A model generated the notes under the pieces. That model was not told the DNA's origin, did no database searches, and saw only the letters and a program-made list of their open reading frames with translations. Positions 37,962 through 59,728 of a DNA stretch of 64,000 nt are shown piece by piece. Within the stretch, counting starts at the first letter, position 1. The number at the start of each line of letters is the position of its first letter. Source of the stretch: Nitrososphaerota archaeon (GTDB taxonomy: Archaea > Thermoproteota > Nitrososphaeria > PSMU01); assembly GCA_040290255.1 (NCBI GenBank), contig PSMU01000001.1:198723-262722 (forward strand), in the 5' to 3' direction. Position numbers and translations under genes: made by a program.

Positions 37962-38045
37962 GATGGGCTTCGGCCGGGTCGCGGTCTAATAAAGCTTTAG
38001 AGGCCGTTAACTCATTTAAGGGGGCAGCGGAGGAGCCTGGCGGAG
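37962..38045. promoter_or_regulatory. divergent promoter region between nuoB and nuoA
   Basis: AT-rich tctaataaagctttagagg ... ctcatttaagg elements in a GC-rich context. Confidence 0.35.
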
Positions 38046-39527: not shown

Positions 39528-39535
39528 GGCGCGGC

Positions 39536-40021
39536 ATGGTCGATCTAGCCTTCATCGCGCTCGCCTCGCTCACGGTGGGGGCCGCGGTGCTCTCGCTCGA
39601 GGCGAGGCAGCTGGTCTACGGCGCGGTGAGCCTCGCGCTCTTCTTCCTCTTCGTGGGCGGCCTCTTCGCGCTCCTGGGCGCGCCCTTTCTGGCCATGTTT
39701 CAGATCTTCATAAACGTGGGGGCCGTGGCCGTGCTGATCATCTTCACGGTCATGCTGGTCAGCCCGCAGCGGTGGCAGGAGCGGCGGCCAAGGGAGGCCC
39801 GGCTGGGGCTCGTGGGGCTGCTCATCACGCTCTTCGGGCTCGTGCCCCTGCTCTATCCCCTTGTGCAGGGGGTGGGGCTCTTGAGCTCGCCGCCCACGCT
39901 CGGCGGGGAGCTGGGCTCGCTGCTGCTGGAGCGCTACGGCCTGGCGCTGGTGCTGCTGGCCTTTCTATTGGCCGCGGCCATAGCGGCCTCCGTCACGCTG
40001 GCGAAGGAGGAGAAGGGCTGA
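39536..40021 (+). CDS. nuoJ: complex I-like subunit J (NuoJ)
   Basis: 161 aa membrane protein, NuoJ-like; stop overlaps nuoK ATG. Confidence 0.8.
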   Translation: MVDLAFIALASLTVGAAVLSLEARQLVYGAVSLALFFLFVGGLFALLGAPFLAMFQIFINVGAVAVLIIFTVMLVSPQRWQERRPREARLGLVGLLITLFGLVPLLYPLVQGVGLLSSPPTLGGELGSLLLERYGLALVLLAFLLAAAIAASVTLAKEEKG

Positions 40022-40329
40022 TGGCCGCCCTGGGCGATTACCTGCTGCTTTCGCTGCTGCTGCTGGCCGTGGGCATCTATGGCCTGGTCTCGAAGAGGGA
40101 TGCCATAAGGCTTCTCTTCGCGCTGGAGATCATCCTGAACGCCGCCCTGCTCAACGCCGTGCTCTTCACGCGCACGCCGGCGGCCCTGGCGCCCGCGGGC
40201 CAGGTGCTGGCGCTCTTCATCATCTCGATAGGGGCCTGTGAGGTGGCCGTGGGCCTGGCCATAATAATCCTGCTCTACAGGCGCACGGGCGACGTGGACG
40301 TTTTGGAGCTGAGGAAGGTCAGGGATTAG
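40021..40329 (+). CDS. nuoK: complex I-like subunit K (NuoK)
   Basis: MAALGDYLLLSLLLLAVGIYGL ... GACEVAVGLAIII; internal ATG of track ORF 39772..40329, overlapping nuoJ stop (TGATG). Confidence 0.85.
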   Translation: MAALGDYLLLSLLLLAVGIYGLVSKRDAIRLLFALEIILNAALLNAVLFTRTPAALAPAGQVLALFIISIGACEVAVGLAIIILLYRRTGDVDVLELRKVRD

Positions 40330-40379
40330 CGCCCAACTCCTTAAATAAAGGGCCCTAGGGCCCCGTGCAGCCGTGAGGC

Positions 40380-41978
40380 TTGAGTCCAGGGCCCCCCTTC
40401 ACGGGGGCAAGAGCTCCAGGCCTCTGGCCTTGGTCGGCGGCGCAGGGCCCTTGGCAGGGGGGTGATGGCTTGCCCATCCCCTACTCGCTCACCCAGGCGA
40501 CGTTCCTCCCCCTCGCCGGGGCCGTGCTCGCCTATTTCCTGGGCGGGAGGCTCCTGAGGAGGATCGGCTGGCTGGCCTTCGCGCTGCTCTCCTACTCGAG
40601 CCTGCTGCTGGGCCTGAGCTACCTAGAGCCGGCAGGGGGGTTCCCCTTGCTCGAGCGCTTCGGCTGGACCTCGGTGCCTGGCCTGAGCTTCGGGCTCCTG
40701 GGCGATGGCCTCAGCCTGCCCGTGGCGTTAGTGATGAACGTGGCCGCCGCCGCGGTGGCCGTCTATTCGATGCCCTACATGGCCAGGAGGATGGCGGCGC
40801 TTTACGGCGAGGAGAGGGGCTCGTTCTGGGGGCTCTACTACGCCAACTACCTGCTCTTCGCCGCGGGGCTCACGGGCGTGGCGCTGGCCACGAACCTGAT
40901 CGAGCTGTACATCTTCGTCGAGCTCATCCTCATCCCCGCATACCTGCTCCTGGGCCTCTTCGGCCAGGTTGACCGGCAGCGCATTGCGCTCATGTACTTC
41001 ATCTGGAACCAGCTGGGCGCCTTCATCTTCCTTGCCGGCATCCTCGTGGCCTGGTTTGGAACGAGGAGCTTTGACATCGCCGCCCTTGGCGCGCTAGGGG
41101 GCCCCTTGGCGCTCCTGGTCACGGGGCTCATGCTACTGGGCTGGCTGATCAAGATGGCCACCTTCGGCTTCCACGTATGGCTCCCCTTCGCGTATGGCGA
41201 ATTCCCCAGCTCCGTCGCGGCCATCAGCGCCATCACGGGACTGGGAAGCTACGTGCTCACCAGGCTGCTGGTCCTTAACCTCTACTCCTCATTCCAACAG
41301 CTGGCCCATCTTATCATCCTGCTGGCCGTCGTGACGCTGCTGTACGGCGGCGCGCTGGCCCTCGCGCAGGAGGACATCAACCGGCTTTATGCATGGTCCA
41401 CGGTCAGCCAGACGGCCTACCTGCTGCTGGGCCTGGCCAGCCTGAGCGCGCTGGGCATCGCGGGCAGCATCTTCCTCTTCCTGGCCCAGGTGCTGGGCAA
41501 GGCGGTGCTCTTCTGCGTGGCGGGCATCCTGGTGACGCAAACGGGCCTGAGGCAGATGGGCAGGATGGGCGGCTATGCCGCGAGGATGCCCCTCACCGCG
41601 CTCCTGGCGCTGGGCGCTTCACTCATCATCTCCGCCGTGCCGCCGACGCTGGGCTTTCAGGGCGAATGGTTGCTCTTTACGGGGCTTCTGGGCTCGGCCC
41701 TGTACGGGCCCCCCTTCTCGCTGGCGCTGGGCTTCGCCGCCCTGCTGGGCACGATGCTCACCGTGGCCTACACGCTCTGGGCCGTTAAGCGCATCTTCTT
41801 CGGCCCGCTGAGCGGGGAGGCCGGGGAGCTGAGCGAGGCGCCCAAGAGCATGACGCTGCCCCTGCTCGCGCTCCTGGCCCTCGCGCTGCTACTGGGCATC
41901 TACCCCGAGCCCCTGCTGGGCCCGCTCTACAGGTACCTGGCTTCAGCGCTGCCCTCGGGCCTGCCGCTGGGAGGATGA
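40380..41978 (+). CDS. antiporter-like membrane subunit (NuoM/N-related, degenerate; fourth antiporter-like subunit)
   Basis: Polytopic, NuoM/N-like, but the conserved W-L-P-D-A motif reads FHVWLPFAYGEFPSS; N-terminal ~30 aa of the track ORF are probably not translated (possible TTG start at 40470). Confidence 0.75.
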   Translation: MSPGPPFTGARAPGLWPWSAAQGPWQGGDGLPIPYSLTQATFLPLAGAVLAYFLGGRLLRRIGWLAFALLSYSSLLLGLSYLEPAGGFPLLERFGWTSVPGLSFGLLGDGLSLPVALVMNVAAAAVAVYSMPYMARRMAALYGEERGSFWGLYYANYLLFAAGLTGVALATNLIELYIFVELILIPAYLLLGLFGQVDRQRIALMYFIWNQLGAFIFLAGILVAWFGTRSFDIAALGALGGPLALLVTGLMLLGWLIKMATFGFHVWLPFAYGEFPSSVAAISAITGLGSYVLTRLLVLNLYSSFQQLAHLIILLAVVTLLYGGALALAQEDINRLYAWSTVSQTAYLLLGLASLSALGIAGSIFLFLAQVLGKAVLFCVAGILVTQTGLRQMGRMGGYAARMPLTALLALGASLIISAVPPTLGFQGEWLLFTGLLGSALYGPPFSLALGFAALLGTMLTVAYTLWAVKRIFFGPLSGEAGELSEAPKSMTLPLLALLALALLLGIYPEPLLGPLYRYLASALPSGLPLGG

Positions 41979-41979
41979 T

Positions 41980-44118
41980 ATGTCGGTCCCCTCCTACGCC
42001 CTTTGGGCCATCTTCCTGGTGCCCTACGCCGGCGCCCTGCTCTCCTTGGCGCTCTGGAGGCTTCCGCGGCTCAGGGACGGCGTGGCGCTCTCGGCCTCGC
42101 TCGGCAGCGCGCTGTTTTCGCTCTGGCCCCTGGCCTCCCTCCTCTCGGGCGGCCTGACCGTTTACGACTCCGTCATCCCCGCCCGCATCCCCTGGATCCC
42201 CTCCCTTGGCATCACGGCCGGCGTGCTGAGCGACCCGCTCACCATCATTCTGGCCAGCTTGGTGGCCTGGATCAGCTTTGCCGTCATGGTCTACAGTCTG
42301 GGCTACATGAGGGGCGACCCGGGCCTCACGCGCTACTGGTTCTTCATGAACTTCTTCATAGGCAACATGGAGCTGCTGGTGCTCTCGGATAACTTCCTTC
42401 AGCTCTTCTTCGGGTGGGAGGGCGTGGGGCTCTGCAGCTATGCGCTCATAGGCCACTGGTACAGCGATGAGGAGGATAAGTGGGTGGGCACCAGGGGGCA
42501 CGTCGTATGGGGCGAGGAGCAGGCCTACCCTCCCTCGCATGCCGGGCTGAAGGCCTTCCTCATGACGCGCTTCGGCGACGTCTTCTTCCTGGCCGGCCTC
42601 TTCCTGCTCTACAACTTCGCGCACACCTTCAACTATGACGAGCTGGCGAGGTCGGCGCTGGGGGCCGGAGGCTGGGCCGAGGCCCTGCGGGCCAGGGGCC
42701 TGCTCGTGCCCGTAGCCCTGCTCATCTTCGGCGGCGCCGTGGGCAAGTCCGCGCAGTTCCCGCTGCATGAGTGGCTGCCCGATGCCATGGCCGGGCCGAC
42801 TACGGTTTCGGCGTTGATACATGCGGCGACGATGGTCAACGCGGGCGTGGTGCTCGTGGCCAGGGCAGCACCGCTCTTTTATGCGCCCTTCTCGGCCTCC
42901 CCCGAGGCCGTGCAGGGCTTCTTTCAGGCCGTGGCCTGGATAGGCGGCTTCACGGCCTTCTTGGCGGCCACGCAGGCCTGCGTGGGCTTTGAGCTGAAGA
43001 AGATCCTGGCCTACTCCACCTTCTCCCAGATAGGGTACATGATTCTGGCCCTGGGCGTGGCGGGGCTCTCCTCGTTGCCCGTGGGTCTCTCCGCCGGCAC
43101 CTACCACTTGATGAGCCACGCCATCTTCAAGGCAACGCTCTTCTTGGCCGCGGGGGCGCTGATACATGCCTGCGAGTCAAAGTATGTGAGCGATATGGGA
43201 GGCCTGGCCGGGAGGATGAGGGTTACGCTGGCCGCCTTCCTCATCTCCGCCGCCTCCCTCGCGGGCCTCCCTCCCTTTAGCGGCTTCTGGAGCAAGGAGT
43301 CGGTGCTGCTCGCCTGCTGGCAGGCGGGCCAGTACGGCCTCTTCGCGCTGGCCGCGGCCTCTTCCGCGCTTACGGCATTTTACTCCTTCAGGCTGCTGGG
43401 CCTCATCTTCTATGGCGGCGAAAGCGAGAGGCTCAGGCAGCTCTTGGGCAGGGGGCATGAAGTTAAGGAGGCGCCGCCCGTGCTGCTTCTGCCCTACGTA
43501 GCCCTTTCGCTGTTTACGGTGCTGCTGGGCCTCTTGGCGCCGCTCGTGGGCCTGGAGGCGCGGCTGGAGGAGGCCTCCACGGCATACCTGGCCTCTCTGT
43601 TTCCAGGGCTGGCCACGGGCGGCCTGGGCGGCTTCGCGTTGGCCCCCTCCATGATCGGCCTGGGCCTCTCCTCGCTGGGCGCCGTCGTGGGCTGGGCGGC
43701 CTACATTTCGCCGCGGGCCGGCATTAGGGCCTTGGGGGCCACGGGCCTGGCAAGGGCCCTCTACTCCTTCTTCGAGGCGCGCTGGTACATCAACGCCTTC
43801 TACTATAAGGCCTTCATGAGGGCGCCGCTTCGGCTCTTTAATCTCGCCCAGGAGCGGCTCGAGCTCCCGCTGCTGGCCAAGCTGAGCGATGTGGGCGCGC
43901 TGGCGGGGGTGGGCCTCTCCTCCTTGGCCAACTGGTTCGACGCCAACGTGGTGGACAGGATGGGCGCCGCGCTCGCGGCCGTGAGCAGCTCGCTCTCTAG
44001 GGTAGCCAGGCGGCTGCAGAGCGGCGTGGTCGAGCAGTACCTCTTCGTCGTCGCCGTGGGCGCGGTGCTCGTGGTGCTGCTGCTCCTCTTCCTGCTGGGG
44101 AGGGTGGCGCCGGCATGA
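41980..44118 (+). CDS. nuoL: complex I-like subunit L (NuoL)
   Basis: 712 aa with FPLHEWLPDAMAGPTTVSALIHAATMVNAG and a long C-terminal extension. Confidence 0.9.
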   Translation: MSVPSYALWAIFLVPYAGALLSLALWRLPRLRDGVALSASLGSALFSLWPLASLLSGGLTVYDSVIPARIPWIPSLGITAGVLSDPLTIILASLVAWISFAVMVYSLGYMRGDPGLTRYWFFMNFFIGNMELLVLSDNFLQLFFGWEGVGLCSYALIGHWYSDEEDKWVGTRGHVVWGEEQAYPPSHAGLKAFLMTRFGDVFFLAGLFLLYNFAHTFNYDELARSALGAGGWAEALRARGLLVPVALLIFGGAVGKSAQFPLHEWLPDAMAGPTTVSALIHAATMVNAGVVLVARAAPLFYAPFSASPEAVQGFFQAVAWIGGFTAFLAATQACVGFELKKILAYSTFSQIGYMILALGVAGLSSLPVGLSAGTYHLMSHAIFKATLFLAAGALIHACESKYVSDMGGLAGRMRVTLAAFLISAASLAGLPPFSGFWSKESVLLACWQAGQYGLFALAAASSALTAFYSFRLLGLIFYGGESERLRQLLGRGHEVKEAPPVLLLPYVALSLFTVLLGLLAPLVGLEARLEEASTAYLASLFPGLATGGLGGFALAPSMIGLGLSSLGAVVGWAAYISPRAGIRALGATGLARALYSFFEARWYINAFYYKAFMRAPLRLFNLAQERLELPLLAKLSDVGALAGVGLSSLANWFDANVVDRMGAALAAVSSSLSRVARRLQSGVVEQYLFVVAVGAVLVVLLLLFLLGRVAPA

Positions 44119-45587
44119 TGCCGATCCTCTCCGCGCTGATCCTGCTGCCGCTGCTGGGGGCCCCGATAGGCTATGCGCTCTTCAGGCTTAACAGGCGCGC
44201 CGGCCTTGCCTTCTGCCTCTCGGTCACGGCCGCCACGCTGGCGCTCTCGCTGGCAGCCTATGCCCTGGTGGCCCTGCGCCCCTCCCCTCCCGGAGCCTAT
44301 GCGCTGGTGGAGCGCTACAGCTGGGTCTCCCTGCCCGACTTCTCATTCGATCTGCTGCTCGGTCTGGATGGGCTGGGCGCGGTCCTGCTGGTGCTCTCCT
44401 CCCTCCTTACGCTTCTGGCGATGGCCGGCTCCCCCGCGCTCATCAGAGAAAGGGAGGGCGAGTACTACTCGCTGATGCTGCTCTTCGAGGGGGCGATAAA
44501 CGGCGTGTTCAGTTCCCTGAACCTGATCTTCTTCTATATCTTCTGGGACCTGGTGCTGATCCCCATGTTCCTCTTCATAGGCATCTGGGGCGGGCCGCGG
44601 CGCAAGTATGCGGCCCTCAAGTTCCTGCTGTACACCTTCACGGGAAGCGTGGTCATGCTCACCGGCTTCCTGATCGCCTACTTTGGCTCGCCCGTGCGCT
44701 CCTTCAACCTGCCCGAGCTCATGGGCCACGTGCCGGCTACGCTGCAGCTGTATTCGTTGCTCGCGGCCTTCATAGGCTTCGGGATAAAGCTGCCCGTCTT
44801 CCCCTTCCACAGCTGGCTGCCCGATGCGCACGTGGAGGCGCCCGCGCCCATCAGCGTGCTCTTGGCTGGGGTGCTGCTCAAGATGGGCGGCTACGGCTTC
44901 ATAAGGATAGGCCTTCAGCTCTTTCCCGAGGCCTCAAGGCAGCTCGCCTGGCTCTTCATGGCCGTTGGGCTGGCCACGATGTTCTACGGGGCCATCGTGG
45001 CGCTCCTCTCATCGGACCTCAAGAGGATGATCGCGCTCACGAGCATCAACCACATGGGCTTCGTGCTCCTGGGCGCCTATGCCGCCATAGCCTCCGGCGC
45101 CGCCCTGGGCCTGCAGGGGGCCATCTTTCAGATGTTCAACCACGGCCTGGCCATAGGCTCCCTCTTCTTGCTCTCGGGCTATATACATGAGCAGGCGGGG
45201 ACTAGGGAGATCAGCCGGCTGGGCGGGCTAAGGTATGCCATGCCGCGCACCGCGGCGCTCCTGATGCTCAGCAGCCTGGCGGGCATGGGCTTCCCCCTCT
45301 TCTCGAGCTTCCTAAGCGAATTCATGGTCATCGCGGGTGCCGTGGCGGGCTACAGGGCCTACTCGGTGGCCGTGCTGGTGCCCGTCATCACGGGGGCCTA
45401 CTTTATGTGGATGCTGAGGCGCACGGTGCTCAGCGAAAGGAACGAAGCGCTGCCGGCGCACGACCTGCCGACGCGTGAGGCGCTGCTGCTCCTGGCCTTC
45501 CTGCTGCCCCTCACGCTGCTCCTCTTCATGCCCTCGCTCATCCTCTCGCCGCTGCAGCCCTTGGTGGAGAGCGTTATGGGGCCATGA
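44115..45587 (+). CDS. nuoM: complex I-like subunit M (NuoM)
   Basis: FHSWLPDAHVEAPAPISVLLAGVLLKMGGYG. Confidence 0.85.
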   Translation: MMPILSALILLPLLGAPIGYALFRLNRRAGLAFCLSVTAATLALSLAAYALVALRPSPPGAYALVERYSWVSLPDFSFDLLLGLDGLGAVLLVLSSLLTLLAMAGSPALIREREGEYYSLMLLFEGAINGVFSSLNLIFFYIFWDLVLIPMFLFIGIWGGPRRKYAALKFLLYTFTGSVVMLTGFLIAYFGSPVRSFNLPELMGHVPATLQLYSLLAAFIGFGIKLPVFPFHSWLPDAHVEAPAPISVLLAGVLLKMGGYGFIRIGLQLFPEASRQLAWLFMAVGLATMFYGAIVALLSSDLKRMIALTSINHMGFVLLGAYAAIASGAALGLQGAIFQMFNHGLAIGSLFLLSGYIHEQAGTREISRLGGLRYAMPRTAALLMLSSLAGMGFPLFSSFLSEFMVIAGAVAGYRAYSVAVLVPVITGAYFMWMLRRTVLSERNEALPAHDLPTREALLLLAFLLPLTLLLFMPSLILSPLQPLVESVMGP

Positions 45588-47035
45588 ACCCGCTCTACAT
45601 CATCGCGGTCCTGCTGGTGGCCTCGCTCGCTACCGTGCTGCTGCAACTGCTGGGCGCCGGGCGGCGGGGGGCGGCGGTGCCGCTGTTGGGCCTTACGTTC
45701 GCGGTGGGCGCAACGCTACAGGGCCTCTTGGGCGGGGGGAGCGGCGTGGGCCCCCTGGCCGCGGACGGGCTGGGCTTCTTCTTCGCGCTGGTGGGCAGCT
45801 TCGTGGGCCTCTCAGCGCTAGTCGCCAGCCTGGAATACCTGAGGGGGGATGAGAATGAGCTGCTCTTCTACAGCCTCCTGCTCGCCTCGGTGGGGGGCCT
45901 TGTCGCGCTCTCCTTCGCCAGGGACCTGCTGACGCTCTTCGTCTCATGGGAGCTGATGGGCATCCCCACCTTCGCGATGGCCGCCTTCAACAAGAAGAGC
46001 GAGGCCTCGCTGGAGGCGGGCCTGAAGTACTTCTTCGTGGGCGCCCTCTCGACCGGGCTGCTCGCCTATGGGATCTCGCTGGCCTATCTGCTCACGGGCT
46101 CACTGGACCTCGCCGGGGTGGCCGCGGGCTTCTCATCGCTCAGCGCCCAGCAGCTCCCCCTGGCGGCCGCGGCCGCGGGCCTCCTGGCGGCGGGCTTCGG
46201 GTTCAAGATGGCCTTCGTCCCCTTTCATATCTGGATCCCCGATGCCTATCAGGGCGCGCCCACGACGCTCTCGGCCTACCTTTCCGCGGCCACCAAGAAG
46301 GCCGGCTTCGTCGCCGCCATAAGGGTGCTGCTCATCTCCCTCGCCCTTCAGCCCCTGCTGAGGCTCGGCTGGGCCGAGCTCTTCGCCGCCCTCTCGCTGC
46401 TCACGATGACCTTCGCCAACCTGGCCGCCCTGACCCAGAGGAGCCTCACGAGGCTGCTCGCTTACTCCAGCATCGCCCAGGCGGGATATATACTGCTGGG
46501 CCTGGCCGTGACGGGGCCCGCCTCGGCCTTCGCGCTCAGCTCCGCTCTCTTTCACGTGCTGAACCACGCGATCCTCTCGGGCCTCTCCTTCATAGCCGCC
46601 GCCTCGTACCTGAAGGGCCTGGGCACGGACGACCTGGATGCCCTGGCGGGCAGCGGGGCAAGGACTCCCTGGACCTCGGTGAGCCTGGCCATCGCGCTGC
46701 TGGGCCTCGCGGGCCTGCCGCCCATTAACGGCTTCTGGAGCAAGCTCTTCATCTTCTCGGCCTCGGTGCAGGCGGGCGGCGTCTACTGGTGGGGCCCCTA
46801 CCTGGCCCTGGCCGGCTTCCTGAACAGCGCGCTGAGCCTGGGCTACTACGGCTGGGTGATTCGCAGGCTCTTCTTCGATGAGCCCGCCGGAGAGGGAGGA
46901 AACGAGCCCAGGCTGCTGGCCCTGCTCTGTGCCGCCCTGGCCGCGCTGGCGCTGCTGATAGGCCTCCTGCCGGGGCCCTTCGCGCGCCTGCTCTACGATG
47001 TAGCTTCCTCCTTCTTGGCCAGCGGCGGGACCTAG
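45584..47035 (+). CDS. nuoN: complex I-like subunit N (NuoN)
   Basis: FHIWIPDAYQGAPTTLSAYLSAATKKAG. Confidence 0.85.
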   Translation: MNPLYIIAVLLVASLATVLLQLLGAGRRGAAVPLLGLTFAVGATLQGLLGGGSGVGPLAADGLGFFFALVGSFVGLSALVASLEYLRGDENELLFYSLLLASVGGLVALSFARDLLTLFVSWELMGIPTFAMAAFNKKSEASLEAGLKYFFVGALSTGLLAYGISLAYLLTGSLDLAGVAAGFSSLSAQQLPLAAAAAGLLAAGFGFKMAFVPFHIWIPDAYQGAPTTLSAYLSAATKKAGFVAAIRVLLISLALQPLLRLGWAELFAALSLLTMTFANLAALTQRSLTRLLAYSSIAQAGYILLGLAVTGPASAFALSSALFHVLNHAILSGLSFIAAASYLKGLGTDDLDALAGSGARTPWTSVSLAIALLGLAGLPPINGFWSKLFIFSASVQAGGVYWWGPYLALAGFLNSALSLGYYGWVIRRLFFDEPAGEGGNEPRLLALLCAALAALALLIGLLPGPFARLLYDVASSFLASGGT

Positions 47036-48928: not shown

Positions 48929-49732
48929 GTGGCGCGGGCCGCGCCGTATACGCCCAGGACCTACTTCGTTTACCCGCCAGGGCCGCGGGGCCCGCTGCAC
49001 TGCACCATCCTGCCCAAGCTCTCTGAGCGGCAGCTCTCGGCGCTGCTGGTCTTATTGGAGAGCAGGGGGCTCAGGTGTGAGCGCCTGGGTCCCGATGTGG
49101 CGCGCGTGAGAAAGGAGGGGCTTTGGTTTAGGCTGGAGCGCTCGGGCATCATGACGGGGTCCGTGGACCCCCTGGAGGCCCTACCCGAGCTCTTCGCGCT
49201 GCTGGGGCGCCTGGCCAAGAGGTGGCGGCCCAGGCCCGAAGCGAAGGGCCCCTTTAGCTCTTGGCGCAACGCCTACCTAAGGCTTCTTCTCTCGGGCCCC
49301 AGGGGCAGGATCGTGCTGAGCCCAAGGCTAGAGGCCCCAGGGGCAGGCTGGAGCAAGAATAGGGAGCGCCACGCCTGCCTGCTGCTGCCCGATGAGCTGC
49401 TGGTGCTGGCCTTCGCCATCAGGGCGGCGAAGCCCAGGGGCGTTGAGCTGCTCAGCCACAGGCCCTTCGCCCGGGCCAGGCCCCTATCGCTCGCTGGCCG
49501 GCTCTACTTCCTCATTAGGTTGAGCGCGGGCCAGGCGCGCCGCTGGCTTGAGCGGCAGGCGCTACACTACCCTGAGGAGGCAAGGCCCCAGCTGCTCCTG
49601 GGCCCCGACCTCTCGCTCCTGCTCTTCTCGCCCAGGCCGTTTGCGCTGACGGGGCGGGGGCTGAGGGGGCTCTGGTACCTTCTGGGCCGCTGGTGCCTGG
49701 ATCCGCAGGCGCTTGCGGGCGAGCTCTCGTAG
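48929..49732 (+). CDS. hypothetical protein (Arg-rich, 267 aa)
   Basis: Longest ORF in an otherwise unassigned 0.8 kb; no family recognised; coding status uncertain in this GC-rich context. Confidence 0.35.
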   Translation: MARAAPYTPRTYFVYPPGPRGPLHCTILPKLSERQLSALLVLLESRGLRCERLGPDVARVRKEGLWFRLERSGIMTGSVDPLEALPELFALLGRLAKRWRPRPEAKGPFSSWRNAYLRLLLSGPRGRIVLSPRLEAPGAGWSKNRERHACLLLPDELLVLAFAIRAAKPRGVELLSHRPFARARPLSLAGRLYFLIRLSAGQARRWLERQALHYPEEARPQLLLGPDLSLLLFSPRPFALTGRGLRGLWYLLGRWCLDPQALAGELS

Positions 49733-49917: not shown

Positions 49918-50019
49918 GGGCCCGTAGCTCAGCCTGGCAGAGCGACCGGCTCATAGCCTGCTGGGAGACCGGTCGGTCGTGGGATCGAAAGGCCTAGCTC
50001 GAGGAGCCCACCGGGCCCA
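49918..50019 (+). tRNA. tRNA with CAT anticodon (elongator Met or Ile2), 12 nt canonical-position intron plus ~16 nt T-arm insertion
   Basis: GGGCCCG-TA-GCTC-AGCCTGGCA-GAGC-G-ACCGG-CTCATA[gcctgctgggag]A-CCGGT-CGGTC-GTGGG-(23 nt)-CCCAC-CGGGCCC-A; T-loop residue 54 would be A in any splice model; 3' end overlaps the stop region of the convergent CDS. Confidence 0.5.
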
Positions 50020-51661
50020 CCTTCTTGAGCTCCTCCTCCAGCGCCGCGAGCTGCCGCTCGCCCCGCCTTAGGCCCGCCTCGAGCTCCCTCCTGAAGGCCT
50101 CGCCCCTTATGAGGCCCTGGCCTCCCCTCCTGAGCAGGGAGATCAGGTCCCTGATGGCCTTCTCCTCCTGGCGCTCCTGGGCCAGCGCCGCCCTGTAGCC
50201 CTTTAGCTCCGGCATCGCCCCCAGGGCCTCCCTGAGCTCCTCGAGCCTCCTCAGCAGCGCCTCACGCCTGGGAGCCAGCTGGGAGTAGAGCTCCAGCAGC
50301 TCGGGGGCCGGGGCGCCCTTGGCCGAGGAGCTAGCCAGCGCGGTGAGGAGCCCACGGTCGAGCTTGGCGCGCTCCTTTAGCAGCGAGAGCAGGAGCTCGG
50401 CCCTTCTCAGGGGGCTCTCCTCCCTTATCACGCGGCCCAGGGCCAGGTGGATGCCCCAGAGGGCCACCAGGATGAGCGCCCAGAGCCCCTGCAGCTGAGA
50501 GGCGGGCGAGGCCAAGCCGGGCTGCAGGAGCAGCGGCGCCGTCTCCATAACGGCGAGCGGCGAGAGCCCCTGTAGCGAGAGGCCCGCGGAGCGCGAGGCC
50601 CAGGCCGGGGCTACGGCCAACGTGAAGTTATCGACGATGCCCTGCACGGGGCTAAAGGCCAGCCCCTTGGCGCTAAAGCCCCAGGGCGTGGGCGTGAAGA
50701 GCGAGGGCGAGTAATAGTGGAGGGTCAGCCGCTCGCTGCTGCCCGGCGCTATGCTTCTGCCCAGCGCTGCCAGGTCCAGCTCCCCCTGGGTGAGCGAGGC
50801 GGAGGCCGAGGAGCCGGGGATGGGGCCCGGGGGCGCCGGCAGGTAAAGCGTCGCCACGTCCGGCGGGAGGTTAAGAGGGAGGCTGGTGAGCGTGGTCCCG
50901 CCGAGGTTTTGGATCAGGATCACATCCTCGATGAAGGGCTGCGCGGTGCCGTTGAGCTGCACCTTCCTTATCACCTCAGGAAAGCGCAGCGCGCTCAGGC
51001 GCGCGCCGCTTCCCAGCTGCAGCGTAAGGTTGTAGAGCCTGGGCTCAAGGAGCCTCGCGGCCCCCGTTGAGTTCGAGTACACGCTGCCCGAGGGCAGCTG
51101 GCTCACCTTCGTGAAGTTGACGCCGAGCGCGCTCACGCCCTGGGGCAGGGCCAGGGAGAGCGTAAAGTTCCTCAGCTCCAGGCCCGGGGAGAGGGAGGGC
51201 AGCGGCAGCGCTAGGCTCATGTTCTGCCCGCCCAGGGGGCGCAGCAGCCCCCCTGCCCCCCTAAGGAAGAAGCTCAGGCTCACGGACTCATTGGCCGAGG
51301 GGGGGAGCAGCCCCGGCCCCGGCCGAAGCGCTATGGGGCCCCCCGCTTGGGCGCTCACGTTAACGGGCACGGGCCCTCGCACGCTGAACGACCAGCTCAG
51401 GGGGCCGGGCGGCAGGGCGGCGCTGAAGGCCTCAGGAAGGCGCAGCTCCAGCGAGGGAATGGGGGCGGACGCGTTCGAGGGGGCCAGAAAGGCCATCGTC
51501 ACGTTCAGGCGCACGAAGCCGGTGGGCAGCACCTGGTAGGCCAGGGTGAGCGAGACGCCGGGTTCGCCGCCCTGGGCGGAGGCGGGGGCCAGCAGCGCGA
51601 GGAGCAGCAGCAAGGAAAGGAGGGGAGAGCAGCGGGCCACGCCGCCCCTTTGCGCCCTCAT
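49994..51661 (-). CDS. membrane-anchored extracellular glycoprotein with cytoplasmic coiled-coil tail
   Basis: Signal peptide (LLSLLLLLALLAPASA), at least ten N-x-S/T sequons in a ~390 aa ectodomain, one TM helix (LWALILVALWGIHLAL), ~150 aa charged helical C-terminus. Confidence 0.65.
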   Translation of the reverse strand: MRAQRGGVARCSPLLSLLLLLALLAPASAQGGEPGVSLTLAYQVLPTGFVRLNVTMAFLAPSNASAPIPSLELRLPEAFSAALPPGPLSWSFSVRGPVPVNVSAQAGGPIALRPGPGLLPPSANESVSLSFFLRGAGGLLRPLGGQNMSLALPLPSLSPGLELRNFTLSLALPQGVSALGVNFTKVSQLPSGSVYSNSTGAARLLEPRLYNLTLQLGSGARLSALRFPEVIRKVQLNGTAQPFIEDVILIQNLGGTTLTSLPLNLPPDVATLYLPAPPGPIPGSSASASLTQGELDLAALGRSIAPGSSERLTLHYYSPSLFTPTPWGFSAKGLAFSPVQGIVDNFTLAVAPAWASRSAGLSLQGLSPLAVMETAPLLLQPGLASPASQLQGLWALILVALWGIHLALGRVIREESPLRRAELLLSLLKERAKLDRGLLTALASSSAKGAPAPELLELYSQLAPRREALLRRLEELREALGAMPELKGYRAALAQERQEEKAIRDLISLLRRGGQGLIRGEAFRRELEAGLRRGERQLAALEEELKKVGPVGSSS

Positions 51662-54609: not shown

Positions 54610-55905
54610 TTGCCCAGGGTCTGGGTGGAGAGCTACGGGTGCAGCGCCAACTTGGCCGACGCCGAGATCATGATGGGCCTGCTGCGCGAAAGGGGCTATG
54701 AGCTGGCCTCGAGCCCCGCCGAGGCGGACCTGAACATGATCGTGACCTGCAGCGTGAAGAACGCCACCGCGAGCCGCATGATTACCCGCATCAACGAGCT
54801 CACACGCACCCGCCGGCCCCTGATCGTCGCCGGCTGCCTGGCCAAGGCGGAGCCCGAGCTCGTGGCCAGGCTCAATCCCAGGGCCTCGCTGCTCGGCCCC
54901 AGGACGGTGCAGCGCGTGGGCGAGGTGGCCGACCTCACGAGGGCGGGCTATAAGGTAGTGGCGCTCGAGGCGCTCGCCGAGCCCAAGGTCTGCCTGCCGA
55001 GGGTCAGGACCAACCCCGTCGTGGCCATCGTCGAGATCTTGAGCGGGTGCCTGAGCAGGTGCAGCTTCTGCCAGACCAAGCTGGCCCGGGGCGACCTCGT
55101 CAGCTACTCGCCCGAGCTGATCGTCAGGGAGGTGGAGATGGCCGTGAGGGAGGGATGCAGGGAGATCTGGCTGACCTCCCAGGATAACTCGTGCTATGGC
55201 AGGGACATCGGCACGAACCTAGCGGAGCTCCTCGAAAGGGTCTGCCGCGTGGAGGGCGACTTCATGGTGAGGGTAGGCATGATGAACCCCCTTCATCTGA
55301 GGCGCTTTCTGGGCGAGCTGATAGAGGCCTTTAAGCACGATAAGGTCTACAAGTTCCTACATCTCCCCGTGCAGACGGGCAGCGACCGCCTGCTCAGGCT
55401 CATGAGGAGGGGCTATACGGTCGATGAGTTTCGCGAGTATGTCAGGGCCTTTAGGAGGGAGATACCGCAGATCACGCTGGCCACCGACATCATCGCCGGC
55501 TTCCCCACCGAGGCCGAGGAGGACGTAGCGCTGACGGTCGAGCTGCTGGAGGAGGTGCAGCCCGACGTGGTCAACCTCTCCTCCTACTCGGCCAGGCCCC
55601 ACACGGACGCGGCGCTGCTGCCCCAGCTGCCCAGGGAGGAGGTGAAGAGGAGGACCCGGTTCCTGGCCGAGGTCGCGGGCCGCGTGATGCTGGAGAGAAA
55701 TAGGAGGTGGCTGGGATGGCGGGGCAGGGCGCTCGTGGAGGAGAGGGTTGAGGGGGCCTTCGTGGCGAGGAATTTTGCGTACAGGCCCATCATCGTCAAG
55801 GCGGAAGCTGCCCTGGGCCAAGAGGTGGAGGTGAGCATAGCGCGCGTCACGGCCCACTGCCTTTATGATGAAGGGGCCGCTTCGGGCACTGGTGAAATTA
55901 ATTAG
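54610..55905 (+). CDS. mtaB: tRNA methylthiotransferase (MiaB/MtaB family radical-SAM enzyme)
   Basis: N-terminal MTTase cysteines, radical-SAM CLSRCSFCQTK, C-terminal TRAM-like region. Confidence 0.85.
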   Translation: MPRVWVESYGCSANLADAEIMMGLLRERGYELASSPAEADLNMIVTCSVKNATASRMITRINELTRTRRPLIVAGCLAKAEPELVARLNPRASLLGPRTVQRVGEVADLTRAGYKVVALEALAEPKVCLPRVRTNPVVAIVEILSGCLSRCSFCQTKLARGDLVSYSPELIVREVEMAVREGCREIWLTSQDNSCYGRDIGTNLAELLERVCRVEGDFMVRVGMMNPLHLRRFLGELIEAFKHDKVYKFLHLPVQTGSDRLLRLMRRGYTVDEFREYVRAFRREIPQITLATDIIAGFPTEAEEDVALTVELLEEVQPDVVNLSSYSARPHTDAALLPQLPREEVKRRTRFLAEVAGRVMLERNRRWLGWRGRALVEERVEGAFVARNFAYRPIIVKAEAALGQEVEVSIARVTAHCLYDEGAASGTGEIN

Positions 55906-55973
55906 GTGAGGTGTGAGCGAAAAATTAAGCCCCACGCCTTATAAGCCTCCGCCCGGCCTGGCGGCCTTGCGAT

Positions 55974-56843
55974 ATGGCTGATGCTGAGCTTGGGCTGATG
56001 GCCGTCGGCGAGCTGGCGACCCGCGCGGCCGACCGGCTGGGAAGCGATTCATACCCGGTCATGAGGGGGCTGCCCCAGCTGAGCGCCTGGGGCCAAAGCC
56101 CGGCGCAGCTGCGCCGCGGGCTTCTTTCTAGGAGGGAGGAGATAGTCCGGGGCCTTTCCGAGTTCAGGAGGGTGGTGCTGCTGGCCGACCTGAGCTCCAC
56201 GCTGGGCGCCTCGCTCACGCCCTCGCTCGTGGGCCTGCTGGAGGGCAGGCTCAGGGGGGCGTGGGTGGTGCTGCCGGGGCCCCGGGAGGGGATGAGGACC
56301 TTCCTGGCCGGCACGGCCTTGGGCCGGCTGCTGGCCCAGGGCGCGCCCATCCTCGTGACGGAGAGGGCGAACCTGATGGACGGCTTCTGGTCCTCCCCGG
56401 CGGAGGTTGCCCTGGAGCACCTGACGGCCCGCATGGCACACATCGTCAAGGAGGTGTCGCTGCCCTACCTGATGGCCCAGCAGCGCGGCACCTTCCTGAT
56501 GGTAGTAGGCTCCTCCCAGGAGCCCGAGGAGGCCCTGGCGAACTTGGCGCTGAAGGTGCAGGGCTCGGCGAGCTCGGGCGCGGAGGGCATCGTGCTGGCC
56601 CCCGGCGATAAATCGCTGGCCGCGCTGGAGGCGCTCGTGCAGGAGGCCCAGGCGGTGCTTAGGGTTTCGCTGAGCTATAAGCTGGCCAAGCTCGAGGAGA
56701 CGATCGCGGTGCTCGTCTGTCCGCTGGAGGCCCAGGCGGTGCTTAGGACCTATGACCCCCTGAGCGGGCTGAAGCAGCTGGACGATGAGCCCAGCGTGGC
56801 GTTACCGGAGGAGGCGGAGCTGGGGCTCCCCTATGTTCCCTAG
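55974..56843 (+). CDS. hypothetical protein; possible highly degenerate FtsZ/tubulin-fold protein
   Basis: 289 aa; segment order resembles FtsZ by eye (LGLMAVGELATRAADRLG ... VVLLADLSSTLGASLTP ... GTFLMVVGSSQ) but the GGGTG(S/T)G GTP loop is absent; promoter ccttataagcc ~35 nt upstream. Confidence 0.5.
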   Translation: MADAELGLMAVGELATRAADRLGSDSYPVMRGLPQLSAWGQSPAQLRRGLLSRREEIVRGLSEFRRVVLLADLSSTLGASLTPSLVGLLEGRLRGAWVVLPGPREGMRTFLAGTALGRLLAQGAPILVTERANLMDGFWSSPAEVALEHLTARMAHIVKEVSLPYLMAQQRGTFLMVVGSSQEPEEALANLALKVQGSASSGAEGIVLAPGDKSLAALEALVQEAQAVLRVSLSYKLAKLEETIAVLVCPLEAQAVLRTYDPLSGLKQLDDEPSVALPEEAELGLPYVP

Positions 56844-58480
56844 CCCAGCTTGGCCTTAAGCCCCTCTATCTCGTCGCGCTCTATCCTTCTAAATAGCGGA
56901 TAGGCCTCGGCTATCCTGTGGCCCGGCGGGATAAGGGGCGAAGAGGCGCTCTCCCAGGGGCCCTTGCCCACTTCGCCTTTAAGCCCCAAGAGGCGCCAGA
57001 GCCGCTCGGCGGAGGAGGGAATGAAGGGATACAGCAGGATGGCCAGGCTCCTGAGCGTGTTCGCTCCCACCCACAGCGCGGCCCGGTAGCCCTCGCGCCT
57101 GGCCCAGGGCGCCTTGGCCTGCAGGTAGGCGTTGCAGAACCTCGAGAAGTCCATCGCCTCCCTGAGCGCGGCATCGAACCTCCCCTCCTGAAGCCTTTCG
57201 CCGCAGGCCCGGCACGCCTGCGCCATGCGCTTCAGCGCCCCCTCATCCTCCTGCGATAAGGTCCCGGGCTCGGGCACCCCGCCGCCCTCGCGGCGCAGCA
57301 GCGTCAGCACCCTATACGCGTAGTTGCCGAAGTTATCCACGAGTTCGGAATTTATCTTCTCCCTGAAGTCGTCCCAGTCGAAGTTCACGTCGGCCTGCGA
57401 GAGGGGCGTTATATAGGCCAGGTAAAAGCGCAGGTAGTCGGCCGGGAAGGCGGCCAAGAAGTCCCTGAGCGAAATATACCACCTCCTGCTCTTGGAGATC
57501 TTCTTGCCCTGAAGCAATAGGTGCCCCCTGGTGGGAATGTAATCGGGAAGCTTGAACCTCCCGTCGGCCAGCCTCATGGCGGGCAGGAAGAGATAATGAT
57601 GGTACACGATGTCCTTTCCTATAAAGTGGTAGATGGTGGCCTCGTTCCACTTCCTCTCCCCCTCATGCCCCAGCAGGAGGAGCGCGGCGCTGATGTAGCA
57701 GAGATGGTTGTCGAACCAGCCGTAGAGCACCTGCCCCTCCGCCTCTTCGAGCGGTATGGGCACGCCCCAGCTTATGTCCCTCGTTATGTCCCAATCGGCC
57801 AGCCCTTCCTCTATCCACCTCATGACGTAGTTAACCACGTCCTCCTGCAGGCGCCCGTTGCCCCTCAGCCACTCCCTTAACCGGTCCGAGAAGGCCGAGA
57901 GCCTGAAGAAATAGTGGGGCACGCTCCTGAGCGAGGGAGGACGCCCGCAGAGCGCGCAGGCCCTATCCCTGAGCTCCGAGGGCGAGTATGTGCGGCCGCA
58001 GACCTCACAATAATCTCCGTACTGGTCCCTTGCCCCGCAAAAGGGGCAGGTGCCCCTTAGGTAGCGGTCGGGCAGGAACTTCTTATCATGCTCGCAATAG
58101 TACTGCTGTACTTCCCTCCTGTAGATGTATCCTGCCCTATAGAGGCGCAGGAAGAACTCCTGGACGAACGCGACGTTCTCGGGGCTGCTGGTCTGGTGAA
58201 AGATATCGAACTTTATGCCCACGGCTTCAAAGTCCTCCAGGTCCCTCTTCCACCACCCGCGCACGAACTCCTGAGGGCTCTTGCCCTCGCGCTCCGCCTG
58301 GATGAGGATGGGCGTGCCGAAGTCATCGGTGGCACAGATGAAGTACGTCTCGACACCCTTGAGCCTCAGGAACCGGACGAAGATATCAGGGGGAAGGTAG
58401 GTGGAGGCCAGGTGGCCCAGGTGGATCTCGCCGTTGGCATAGGGAAGGGCCGCCGTAACGATGACCCTGCTGAGCGCGCA
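56840..58480 (-). CDS. metG: methionyl-tRNA synthetase (start codon unresolved)
   Basis: Track ORF starts at GTG 58264, but the frame is open 72 codons further upstream encoding VTAALPYANGEIHLGHL (HIGH motif) with no ATG/GTG/TTG in frame; a GGAGGTGATG site lies 1 nt out of frame at 58481. Confidence 0.8.
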   Translation of the reverse strand, partial: CALSRVIVTAALPYANGEIHLGHLASTYLPPDIFVRFLRLKGVETYFICATDDFGTPILIQAEREGKSPQEFVRGWWKRDLEDFEAVGIKFDIFHQTSSPENVAFVQEFFLRLYRAGYIYRREVQQYYCEHDKKFLPDRYLRGTCPFCGARDQYGDYCEVCGRTYSPSELRDRACALCGRPPSLRSVPHYFFRLSAFSDRLREWLRGNGRLQEDVVNYVMRWIEEGLADWDITRDISWGVPIPLEEAEGQVLYGWFDNHLCYISAALLLLGHEGERKWNEATIYHFIGKDIVYHHYLFLPAMRLADGRFKLPDYIPTRGHLLLQGKKISKSRRWYISLRDFLAAFPADYLRFYLAYITPLSQADVNFDWDDFREKINSELVDNFGNYAYRVLTLLRREGGGVPEPGTLSQEDEGALKRMAQACRACGERLQEGRFDAALREAMDFSRFCNAYLQAKAPWARREGYRAALWVGANTLRSLAILLYPFIPSSAERLWRLLGLKGEVGKGPWESASSPLIPPGHRIAEAYPLFRRIERDEIEGLKAKLG

Positions 58481-58489
58481 TCACCTCCC

Positions 58490-59728
58490 TCATAGGGCCC
58501 AGCTCTCCGCATATTTAACCTGCTCCTCGGTGAGCGCGTCGAGCGCTATGCCGTAGGCCCCGAGCGTGGCCCTGGCCACCTCCTCATCCACCTCCTGAGG
58601 CACGGGCACGAGCCTCTTCTCAAGCCTTGGCGCTTCGTTGGCCAAGTACAGCAGCGAGAGCAGCTGGTTGGAGAAGCTCATCATCATCACCTCGGGGGGA
58701 TGGCCCTCCGCGCAGACCAGGTTCACCACCCTTCCCTCGGCCAGGAGATACAGGCGCCGGCCGTCGGGCAACTCGTACTCCGTGACGTTGGGCCTGACTT
58801 CCCGGCTCGCCCTGGCCATCCTCTTCAGCGCCCCGACGTTCACCTCCACGTCGAAGTGGCCCGCGTTGGCCAGCACGGCGCCGTCCTTCATGTTCAGCAG
58901 GTGGGGCTCATCGATGACGTTGATCTGGCCAGTGCAGGTGATGAAGAGGTCTCCCAGGGGCGCCGCCTGGCGCATGCTCATGACCTCATAGCCCTGGAGG
59001 AGGGCCTCGAGGGCCCTGATCGGGTTCACCTCGGTGACCACCACGCGGGCCCCCAGGCCCCTCGCCCTCGCGGCAACGCCCCTGCCCACCCACCCATAGC
59101 CCGCCACGACGACGACCTTTCCGGCCAGCAGCAGGCTCGTGGCCCTTAGGATGCCGTCGAGCGTGCTCTGCCCCGTGCCATATCGGTTGTCGAAGAGGAA
59201 CTTGGTGCTCGCGTTGTTCACGGCTATGATGGGATAAGCGAGCCCCCGCTGCCTCTCAAGGGCCCTGAGCCGAAGCACGCCGGTGGTCGTCTCCTCGGTG
59301 CCCCCCTCGATCCTCGCAGCATACCCCTCGCTGTGGGCCATGACGTGCGCATCCGCGCCATCGTCCACCTGCAGGCTCGGCCCCGCCCTCAGCACATTTC
59401 TTATGCAGGCCTTATACTGCTCGGTACTCTGCCCCCTCCAGGCCCAGACCTCGACCCCCTCGCTCAGGAGGTAGGCGGCGATGTCGTCCTGGGTCGAGAG
59501 AGGGTTCGCGCCCGCCAGGTAGACTTCGGCGCCGAGCTGCTGCAGGCCCTTGACGAACACGGCCGTCTCCTTGGTCACGTGCAGGCAGACGCCCACCTTT
59601 TTTCCCTTGAGGGGGGCCTTGGGCCTCTGGTCCTCTATTATGCGCGTGAGCGTGGGCATGTGGCGCCAGGCCCAGCTGAAGTTAATGGCCCCCCTGGGCG
59701 CCAGCGACTCATCGGCTACCCTCTTCAA
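58490..59728 (-). CDS. ahcY: adenosylhomocysteinase
   Basis: AhcY pattern (NAD site VVVVAGYGWVGRGVA); likely TTG start at 59728 (LKRVADESLA), as the first 30 aa of the track ORF are Ser/Trp/Arg-rich and overlap mtaD. Confidence 0.9.
   Translation of the reverse strand: MKRVADESLAPRGAINFSWAWRHMPTLTRIIEDQRPKAPLKGKKVGVCLHVTKETAVFVKGLQQLGAEVYLAGANPLSTQDDIAAYLLSEGVEVWAWRGQSTEQYKACIRNVLRAGPSLQVDDGADAHVMAHSEGYAARIEGGTEETTTGVLRLRALERQRGLAYPIIAVNNASTKFLFDNRYGTGQSTLDGILRATSLLLAGKVVVVAGYGWVGRGVAARARGLGARVVVTEVNPIRALEALLQGYEVMSMRQAAPLGDLFITCTGQINVIDEPHLLNMKDGAVLANAGHFDVEVNVGALKRMARASREVRPNVTEYELPDGRRLYLLAEGRVVNLVCAEGHPPEVMMMSFSNQLLSLLYLANEAPRLEKRLVPVPQEVDEEVARATLGAYGIALDALTEEQVKYAESWAL

What the first reader, a model, noticed from the sequence alone, without database searches (positions are those of the whole stretch)
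55974..56843. Possible degenerate FtsZ/tubulin-fold protein lacking the GTP-binding glycine loop
By eye the 289 aa protein follows the FtsZ segment order, but where FtsZ has GGGTG(S/T)G it reads ADLSSTLGASLTP. A catalytically dead FtsZ-like protein would be notable in a lineage whose division machinery is poorly defined (Thermoproteales lack FtsZ and Cdv; established knowledge). The similarity is weak and judged without a search.
Basis: inference. Interest (0 to 1): 0.5.

Follow-up and report, generated by a model that had tools for sequence, protein, structure and literature searches.

The report
Degenerate thaumarchaeal-type FtsZ without GTP loops
The gene encodes a real but extremely diverged copy of the cell-division protein FtsZ that keeps the fold but has lost the GTP-binding and GTP-hydrolysing loops; it belongs to the "dead FtsZ" already known from ammonia-oxidising archaea (Nitrososphaerota), not to a Thermoproteales novelty.

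The parts
55974..56843 (+). FtsZ-like ORF, 289 aa, two-domain FtsZ/tubulin fold, annotated 'hypothetical protein' (NCBI MER3601392.1)
55995..56027 (+). Remnant of the T1 loop (residues 8-18, LMAVGELATRA). Canonical FtsZ has GIGGGGSNA and thaumarchaeal FtsZ has GLGGVGS/GIGGAG. Only G12 is kept.
56184..56222 (+). Remnant of the T4 tubulin signature loop (residues 71-83, ADLSSTLGASLTP, opposite AGLGGGTGTGAAP). L73, G78 and P83 are invariant in 88 family members.
56271..56291 (+). Remnant of the T5 loop (residues 100-106, LPGPREG, opposite RPFxFEG). P101 and E105 are invariant. The family-wide Phe (85 of 88) is replaced by Gly.
56358..56396 (+). T6 region (residues 129-141, TERANLMDGFWSS). The family's DND (canonical N-D/E) is replaced by ERA. 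The segment NLMDGFWSS is identical in the 54% orthologue and, in the alignment, carries a 4-residue insertion (DGFW) relative to the rest of the family.
56400..56492 (+). Core helix H7 (residues 143-167), joined by a 5-residue link to the next strand (173-181). The T7 synergy loop (NxDFAD) and helix H8 of FtsZ are absent.
56742..56843 (+). C-terminal family motif: LRTYDPLSGLKQLDDEP (residues 257-273) plus a low-confidence tail to residue 289. Y260-D261-P262-L263 and D270 are (near) invariant in the family.
55906..55973 (+). Intergenic region with a TTATAA box at 55939-55944 (30-35 nt before the ATG). 55 of the last 65 nt are identical in the sister lineage although synonymous sites are saturated. 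It is inferred to be the gene's own archaeal promoter.
54610..55905 (+). Upstream, co-oriented gene for tRNA t6A37 methylthiotransferase (TIGR01578 MiaB-like-B, 432 bits). It is the conserved neighbour of the FtsZ-like gene across the whole family.
56840..58462 (-). Convergent methionyl-tRNA synthetase gene. Its stop overlaps the FtsZ-like stop by 4 nt, and the overlap is conserved in the sister lineage.

Best explanation
The ORF encodes a highly diverged orthologue of the non-canonical FtsZ of Nitrososphaerota (the Nmar_1262 type). It keeps the FtsZ two-domain fold: an N-terminal nucleotide-binding-type domain, helix H7 and a C-terminal domain. Every element FtsZ uses to bind and hydrolyse GTP is lost or rewritten. 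T1 GxGGxG is now VGELAT. T3 is absent. T4 GGGTGTG is now LSSTLGA. T5 PFxFEG is now PGPREG. T6 N(D/E) is now ERA. The T7 loop and H8, which supply the catalytic acidic residues to the next subunit in a filament, are deleted. Shown here: the homology, fold, orthology, motif loss, purifying selection and conserved upstream region. Inferred: the protein no longer binds GTP and cannot form GTP-driven, treadmilling filaments, so it is not the cytokinetic ring. It acts instead as a nucleotide-free pseudo-GTPase, a static scaffold or adaptor. The most conserved surfaces would be the working parts. One is the former pocket face (LLADLSS, EGMRTFLAGTAL, NLMDGFWSS). The other is the short disordered C-terminal peptide YDPL...LDD, which resembles the acidic LDDxxD C-terminal peptide through which archaeal FtsZ docks onto SepF. 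The fixed position behind the ms2t6A methylthiotransferase gene points to co-regulation or a functional link that is not yet understood.
Against: No binding or polymerisation experiment exists for this protein. Loss of GTP binding is inferred from motifs only. The window protein alone hits no Pfam, NCBIfam or PDB sequence. Its thin profile is not significant against two canonical FtsZ directly (3.5%, E 0.012), so the link is transitive, backed by structure and synteny. The AF2 alignment contained PF00091-positive relatives, so the model is not fully independent of the homology inference. The former pocket loops are the most conserved parts within the subfamily, which could mean that some ligand is still bound. 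SepF was not found in the 64 kb window and could not be searched for in the rest of the genome. In this copy the third Asp of the LDDxxD pattern is Ser. dN/dS is two to three times that of the neighbouring genes, so constraint is relaxed.
Confidence: 0.6

Rival explanations
1. It is still a working cytoskeletal or division protein. It would polymerise without nucleotide, or with a nucleotide bound in a remodelled pocket, and take part directly in cytokinesis or cell shape.
For: The full two-domain fold is kept. The loops of the former pocket and upper longitudinal face are the best conserved stretches between the two lineages. The gene is under purifying selection.
Against: T1, T3, T4 and T6 are unrecognisable, and T7/H8, half of the longitudinal interface, is deleted. 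The better-preserved thaumarchaeal orthologue does not polymerise in yeast and is diffuse in cells that divide with CdvABC (PMC3684127; PMC5840170).
Confidence: 0.1
2. It works with the neighbouring ms2t6A tRNA methylthiotransferase, or with translation more generally. It could be an accessory, chaperone or regulatory subunit, which would be a non-cytoskeletal job for an FtsZ descendant.
For: The gene pair, same strand with a median gap of 93 nt, is kept in 68 to 70 of 71 loci across Nitrosopumilaceae, Nitrososphaera, an unplaced AT-rich lineage, signature-intact members and this lineage, while the FtsZ-like proteins have drifted to about 20% identity. The upstream gene is TIGR01578 at 432 bits.
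Against: There is no direct evidence for an interaction. The FtsZ-like gene seems to have its own conserved TATA-like promoter. Conserved adjacency can persist without a shared function. No such partnership is described in the papers searched.
Confidence: 0.15
3. It is an evolutionary relic, a former FtsZ drifting towards loss after Cdv took over division, with no remaining function.
For: It evolves two to three times faster than its neighbours (dN/dS 0.35 against 0.12-0.20; 55% against 73-80% identity). All catalytic motifs are gone.
Against: The reading frame, length and 12 family-invariant residues are intact in two lineages whose synonymous sites are saturated. The upstream region is conserved. 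The family is retained in more than 130 Nitrososphaeria genomes.
Confidence: 0.1
4. It is not an FtsZ homologue at all, but an unrelated Rossmann-like protein that resembles FtsZ by chance.
Confidence: 0.02

Closest known systems
Non-canonical FtsZ of Nitrososphaeria/Thaumarchaeota (N. maritimus Nmar_1262 type)
   Same: Degenerate T4 signature with a single retained Gly followed by xAxxP. No T3 loop and no T7/H8. About 290-320 aa with almost no C-terminal linker. C-terminal YDPL...LD(D/W) motif. The gene lies directly downstream of the ms2t6A methylthiotransferase gene. All family-invariant residues are shared.
   Different: Only about 20% identity. The thaumarchaeal proteins keep T1 (GxGGxG), MPFxFE and DND, whereas this one has VGELAT, LPGPRE and ERA, plus the subfamily-specific segment NLMDGFWSS (a 4-residue DGFW insertion in the alignment). 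It is not recognised by Pfam or NCBIfam and is annotated as hypothetical.
Signature-intact FtsZ-like relatives of the same family (P0004, P0008, P0009; unplaced archaeal metagenome contigs)
   Same: Same C-terminal YDPL...DD motif. Same neighbourhood (GcvP, ThiS, methylthiotransferase, FtsZ-like). No T3. No acidic T7 residues.
   Different: They keep G(V/I)GxAG and AGLGGxxGxG and pass Pfam PF00091, so they may still bind nucleotide. They retain a T7/H8-length segment.
Canonical FtsZ (bacterial FtsZ, archaeal FtsZ1/FtsZ2; TIGR00065)
   Same: Overall two-domain fold and order of secondary-structure elements. The remnant motifs are in the right register. An acidic C-terminal peptide is reminiscent of the archaeal SepF-binding peptide.
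   Different: No GTP-binding or catalytic motifs. No long C-terminal linker. No hit to TIGR00065. Its better-preserved relative does not polymerise and is not at the division site.
CetZ and other non-division tubulin-superfamily proteins (tubulin, TubZ, PhuZ)
   Different: By sequence the family profile is much closer to FtsZ (E 6e-25) than to CetZ (1.6e-11) or gamma-tubulin (3e-4). All of those families are active GTPases.
Non-canonical FtsZ-like sequences reported in Korarchaeia and Bathyarchaeia (PMC9723716)
   Same: They are described as TACK-lineage FtsZ-like proteins of undetermined role. The signature-intact relatives found here may belong to them.
   Different: Not tested here.

Membership tests
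FtsZ/tubulin superfamily (fold level) | Two-domain fold: Rossmann-like N-terminal domain, core helix H7, C-terminal domain | tested here: met
FtsZ/tubulin superfamily (fold level) | Statistically significant sequence homology to family members | tested here: met
   Transitive only. hhalign gives 97.2% and 97.7% to groups whose members pass PF00091. Direct searches give no hit. The sister protein hits PF00091 at E 0.08 in the right register. The direct profile against canonical FtsZ is not significant.
FtsZ/tubulin superfamily (active GTPases) | Tubulin signature motif (G/A)GGTG(S/T)G in loop T4 | tested here: not met
   LSSTLGA lies opposite GGGTGTG; one Gly of five is kept.
FtsZ/tubulin superfamily (active GTPases) | T1 glycine loop GxGxxG and T3 loop (GxGAGxxP) | tested here: not met
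   T1 reads AVGELAT. The T3 segment is absent in the whole family.
FtsZ/tubulin superfamily (active GTPases) | T7 synergy loop with catalytic acidic residues (NxDxxD/E) | tested here: not met
   About 18 alignment columns covering T7/H8 are deleted. H7 (143-167) runs almost directly into strand 173-181.
Canonical FtsZ (NCBIfam TIGR00065 equivalog) | Score above the curated cut-off (295 bits) | tested here: not met
   No hit at E up to 10. Distant relatives score 28-119 bits.
Nitrososphaerota non-canonical FtsZ (Nmar_1262 type) | Family-invariant residues (R47, L73, G78, P83, P101, E105, F110, Y260, D261, P262, L263, D270 in window numbering) | tested here: met
   All 12 are present; each is conserved in 86-88 of 88 aligned members.
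Nitrososphaerota non-canonical FtsZ (Nmar_1262 type) | C-terminal (F/Y)DxYDPL ... LD(D/W) motif directly after the last strand | tested here: met
   LRTYDPLSGLKQLDDEP.
Nitrososphaerota non-canonical FtsZ (Nmar_1262 type) | Gene immediately downstream of, and co-oriented with, the TIGR01578 methylthiotransferase gene | tested here: met
   The gap in the window is 68 nt. 68 of 71 informative loci have the same arrangement.
Nitrososphaerota non-canonical FtsZ (Nmar_1262 type) | Retained T1 GxGGxG, MPFxFE and DND loops (typical of thaumarchaeal members) | tested here: not met
   VGELAT, LPGPRE and ERA. This is what makes the protein an extreme variant.
Nitrososphaerota non-canonical FtsZ (Nmar_1262 type) | Source organism in Nitrososphaerota | tested here: met
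   NCBI record name 'MAG: hypothetical protein C4339_01590 [Nitrososphaerota archaeon]'. This is the submitter's label, not checked independently by phylogeny.
Nitrososphaerota non-canonical FtsZ (Nmar_1262 type) | No GTP binding, no polymerisation, not at the division site | not testable with these tools
   Known only for Nmar_1262 (PMC3684127, PMC5840170).
CetZ | Closer to CetZ than to FtsZ by sequence | tested here: not met
   The family profile scores FtsZ at E 6e-25 to 7e-17 and CetZ at 1.6e-11 and 1.7e-10.

The most novel reading that the evidence does not exclude
The whole family of FtsZ-derived pseudo-GTPases, with this protein as its most stripped-down member, has left the cytoskeleton. 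On this reading it works with the CDKAL1-type ms2t6A tRNA methylthiotransferase encoded directly upstream in almost every genome, for example as a scaffold or regulator that links tRNA modification or translation to the cell cycle. That would be a new function for the tubulin/FtsZ fold.
Probability: 0.1. Interest if true: 0.7.

Novelty: new member of a known kind. Interest (0 to 1): 0.35.

Why it matters
It shows how far an FtsZ can erode and still be kept under selection. This lineage retains the fold, a dozen invariant residues, a C-terminal docking-type peptide and a fixed genomic position after losing every nucleotide-handling loop. The result assigns a family to a protein that public records call hypothetical. 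It corrects the lineage assumption: Nitrososphaerota, where Cdv divides the cell, not Thermoproteales. It also yields two testable leads on the unknown role of the 'dead' FtsZ of ammonia-oxidising archaea and their thermophilic relatives. One is the SepF-like acidic C-terminal peptide. The other is the near-universal pairing with the ms2t6A methylthiotransferase gene, which no paper found in a full-text search mentions.

Tried and rejected
- Single-sequence Pfam, NCBIfam and PDB-sequence searches gave no hits, even at E 10.
- The PDB search with the 3-sequence profile gave only a chance hit, a tellurite-resistance protein at E 0.28.
- The first AF2 run with 3 sequences was unusable (pLDDT 42). 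It was replaced by a 19-sequence run.
- A genome-contig scan with the 3-sequence alignment found nothing.
- The word-index search with the 14-sequence alignment added few members.
- Direct hhalign against two canonical FtsZ was not significant, so the case rests on intermediates, structure and synteny.
- The afdb50 fold library was not available.
- Busiek & Margolin 2011 and Makarova et al. 2010 are not held.
- About 30 window ORFs were scanned for SepF, CdvA/B/C or a canonical FtsZ. None was found. The rest of the genome could not be searched.
- The Thermoproteales context was considered and rejected.
- CetZ or tubulin membership was rejected.
- A pseudogene was rejected.
- A resemblance of YDPL to the eukaryotic YPxL late-domain motif was noted and set aside as untestable here.

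Full report
**1. The observation**

- The ORF is there as described: ATG at 55974, stop ending at 56843, + strand, 289 aa. ADLSSTLGASLTP is at residues 71-83.
- It looks like a real gene. GC by codon position is 0.72/0.47/0.90, like the confirmed genes of this 66% GC window and unlike the spurious overlapping ORFs.
- The identical protein is encoded on 11 contigs from several metagenomes.
- Among 5.8 billion clustered proteins there are only two close relatives: a 98% variant and a 54% orthologue (P0002).
- The orthologue lies in the same order of genes: glycine dehydrogenase subunits, a radical-SAM gene, this gene, MetRS, SAH hydrolase.

**2. Is it FtsZ-like?**

Alone, the sequence hits nothing in Pfam, NCBIfam or the PDB sequences, even at E 10. 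The evidence comes from three other directions.

Profile searches:
- A profile of the three sequences was searched against 1.8 billion representative proteins. It finds eight further relevant proteins at E 3e-7 to 8e-4.
- Seven of those eight pass the Pfam gathering score for PF00091 (Tubulin/FtsZ). All eight hit TIGR00065 ftsZ below its cut-off.
- The 54% orthologue itself touches PF00091 at E 0.08 in the right register.
- Against a group with an intact signature, hhalign gives 97.2% probability, E 4.5e-11, over 273 columns (residues 8-282), which is the full length.
- Against a second group, hhalign gives 97.7%, E 1.5e-12.
- A family profile that includes the window protein hits M. jannaschii FtsZ1 at E 6e-25. 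The next 48 hits are also FtsZ, then CetZ (1.6e-11), then gamma-tubulin (3e-4).

Limit of the sequence evidence:
- The thin 3-sequence profile compared directly with two canonical FtsZ is not significant (3.5%, E 0.012).

Structure:
- AlphaFold2 with three sequences failed (pLDDT 42).
- With 19 family sequences and no canonical FtsZ in the alignment, it gave pLDDT 80.8 and pTM 0.82.
- The Foldseek top 50 PDB hits are all FtsZ or CetZ (E 2e-11, about 300 columns, TM 0.5-0.63).
- The fold assignment is therefore solid.

**3. Which FtsZ-like family, and which organism?**

- A scan of 185,579 species genomes with the second group (A4) found 132 relatives. The 80 kept carry Nitrosopumilus, Nitrosotenuis, Cenarchaeum, Nitrososphaera or other thaumarchaeal/Nitrososphaeria titles, apart from a few generically titled MAGs.
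- A Nitrosopumilus copy reads SNLAGKAGSAMAP. This is the AGKAGSA variant motif published for N. maritimus Nmar_1262.
- Nmar_1262 also lacks the T7 loop. It does not polymerise in yeast even after GGGTGTG is restored (PMC3684127).
- It is diffuse in cells that divide with CdvABC (PMC5840170).
- NCBI names the window protein 'MAG: hypothetical protein C4339_01590 [Nitrososphaerota archaeon]'.
- The lineage is therefore not Thermoproteales, and the 'no FtsZ, no Cdv' context does not apply.

**4. Orthology**

Three independent features tie the window protein to this family.

1. Invariant residues. It keeps all 12 positions that are invariant or nearly so in an 88-member alignment: R47, L73, G78, P83, P101, E105, F110, Y260, D261, P262, L263 and D270.
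2. C-terminal motif. It has the family's motif (F/Y)DxYDPL...LD(D/W), here LRTYDPLSGLKQLDDEP.
3. Synteny.
   - The upstream co-oriented gene (54610..55905) is the TIGR01578 tRNA t6A37 methylthiotransferase (432 bits, cut-off 315).
   - A homologue of it (45-53% identity) lies directly upstream on the same strand in 68 of 71 loci that have enough upstream DNA. The median gap is 93 nt.
   - Two more loci have it at 560-670 nt, and one lacks it.
   - The same pairing holds in an unplaced AT-rich lineage.
   - It also holds in two signature-intact members, one of which also has the GcvP genes nearby, as in the window.

**5. Anatomy of the degeneration**

| Element | Canonical FtsZ | Signature-intact relatives | Thaumarchaeal | Window |
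|---|---|---|---|---|
| T1 | GIGGGGSNA | G(V/I)GxAG | GLGGVGS | AVGELATRA |
| T3 | GLGAGGNP | absent | absent | absent |
| T4 | AGLGGGTGTGAAP | AGLGGSVGTGIAP | SNLAGKAGSAMAP | ADLSSTLGASLTP |
| T5 | RPFxFEG | MPFxFE | MPFxFE | LPGPREG |
| T6 | IPNxRL | IDNDxL | IDNDxL | TERANL |
| T7/H8 | GLINLDFADV... | segment kept, acidic residues lost | deleted | deleted |

- In the window protein, T6 is followed by NLMDGFWSS. This segment is identical in the 54% orthologue. In the alignment it carries a 4-residue insertion (DGFW) relative to the rest of the family.
- In the model, H7 (143-167) connects through five residues to the next strand.
- This copy is the most eroded stage of a graded series.

**6. 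Is it still functional?**

- Against the 54% orthologue, dN/dS is 0.35 (dN 0.38, dS 1.08, near saturation). The four neighbouring genes give 0.12-0.20. Constraint is relaxed but clearly purifying.
- The 65 nt before the ATG are identical at 55 positions between the two lineages. They include a TTATAA box 30-35 nt upstream of the start.
- I read this as the gene's own archaeal promoter with a very short leader. That reading is inference.
- The stop overlaps the convergent MetRS stop by 4 nt in both lineages.

**7. How it most likely works**

- Shown: fold, family, motif loss, selection.
- Inferred: without T1, T3, T4 and T6 the protein cannot hold GTP as FtsZ does. Without T7/H8 it cannot complete the active site of a neighbouring subunit. 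It is therefore not a dynamic filament former or the division ring. The behaviour of Nmar_1262 agrees with this.
- I propose a nucleotide-free pseudo-GTPase that serves as a static scaffold or adaptor.
- Two surfaces stand out. The first is the former pocket face, the best conserved part within the subfamily: LLADLSS, EGMRTFLAGTAL, NLMDGFWSS. The second is the low-confidence C-terminal tail (pLDDT 45-59).
- The tail carries an acidic peptide. Signature-intact relatives read LDDALD, IDDVPD or VDDEMD, and the window reads LDDEPS.
- This resembles the archaeal FtsZ C-terminal peptide NEDQLDDFIDGIF, whose three Asp bind SepF (PMC8178401).
- Thaumarchaea are reported to encode SepF alongside their FtsZ while dividing with ESCRT (PMC11188069).
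- SepF is thus a candidate partner. I could not check its presence in this genome, and in this copy the third Asp is lost.
- The near-universal pairing with the methylthiotransferase gene is unexplained. It may reflect co-regulation or a functional link.

**8. Comparison with what is known, and novelty**

- GTP-motif-less FtsZ in Thaumarchaeota has been known since 2011-2013.
- Non-canonical FtsZ-like proteins of undetermined role are also noted in Korarchaeia, Bathyarchaeia and Nitrososphaeria (PMC9723716).
- This protein is a new and extreme member of that kind. It is unrecognised by the HMM libraries and annotated as hypothetical.
- The conserved methylthiotransferase pairing and the family-wide YDPL...LDD motif did not appear in the papers I could search. 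The library is incomplete, so I claim no priority.
- Interest is moderate (0.35).

Noticed in passing
window 58264-58492 (minus strand); L001 12480-12550: The MetRS N-terminus carrying the HIGH motif (VTAALPYANGEIHLGH) lies upstream of the first ATG/GTG/TTG. Between the in-frame stop and this motif there is no canonical start codon, in either the window or the 54%-diverged sister lineage. NCBI starts the 540-aa protein at ATC (58462-58460). An out-of-frame ATG with a GGAGGTGA box, directly after the SAH-hydrolase stop, is conserved in both lineages. This suggests a rare start codon or possibly a +1 frameshift.
   Followed up: partly
window 55906-55973; L001 9939-10000: The intergenic region upstream of the FtsZ-like gene is about 85% identical between two lineages whose synonymous sites are saturated. 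It contains a TTATAA box and an AAAA(A/G)TTAAG element, so it is probably a conserved archaeal promoter or regulatory site.
   Followed up: partly
loci L008-L091 (e.g. L050 4662-6942, L090 4611-7062): The ms2t6A methylthiotransferase gene (TIGR01578) and the FtsZ-like gene form a near-universal co-oriented pair across Nitrososphaeria and related unplaced lineages. In signature-intact members a ThiS-like gene, and in one of them an FeS_assembly_P gene, precede the pair.
   Followed up: partly
window 29912-31650: Kae1 and Bud32 (KEOPS, t6A37 synthesis) are encoded as separate, overlapping genes about 24 kb from the gene of the enzyme that methylthiolates t6A37.
   Followed up: no
window 48929-49732 (+) and 49994-51661 (-): Two ORFs with genuine coding-type GC3 (0.87, 0.91) have no Pfam or NCBIfam match. 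The 555-aa one starts with a signal-peptide-like hydrophobic stretch. A gene occupies the corresponding place in the sister contig L001.
   Followed up: no
window 6003-9035 (-): A 1010-aa protein with a signal-like N-terminus and divergent InlB B-repeat domains, possibly a surface or S-layer-associated protein.
   Followed up: no
window 36323-47035: A long NADH:quinone oxidoreductase (complex I-like) gene cluster with strongly negative AT skew over 38-46 kb, followed by UbiA and a peroxiredoxin. The same order is seen in L001.
   Followed up: no
P0011: One of the weak profile hits (E 8.6e-4) is a 299-aa internally repetitive protein. It matches only a 30-residue stretch (EAQAILR...EETISVL), in three copies. 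It was judged a chance or low-complexity match and excluded from the alignments.
   Followed up: partly
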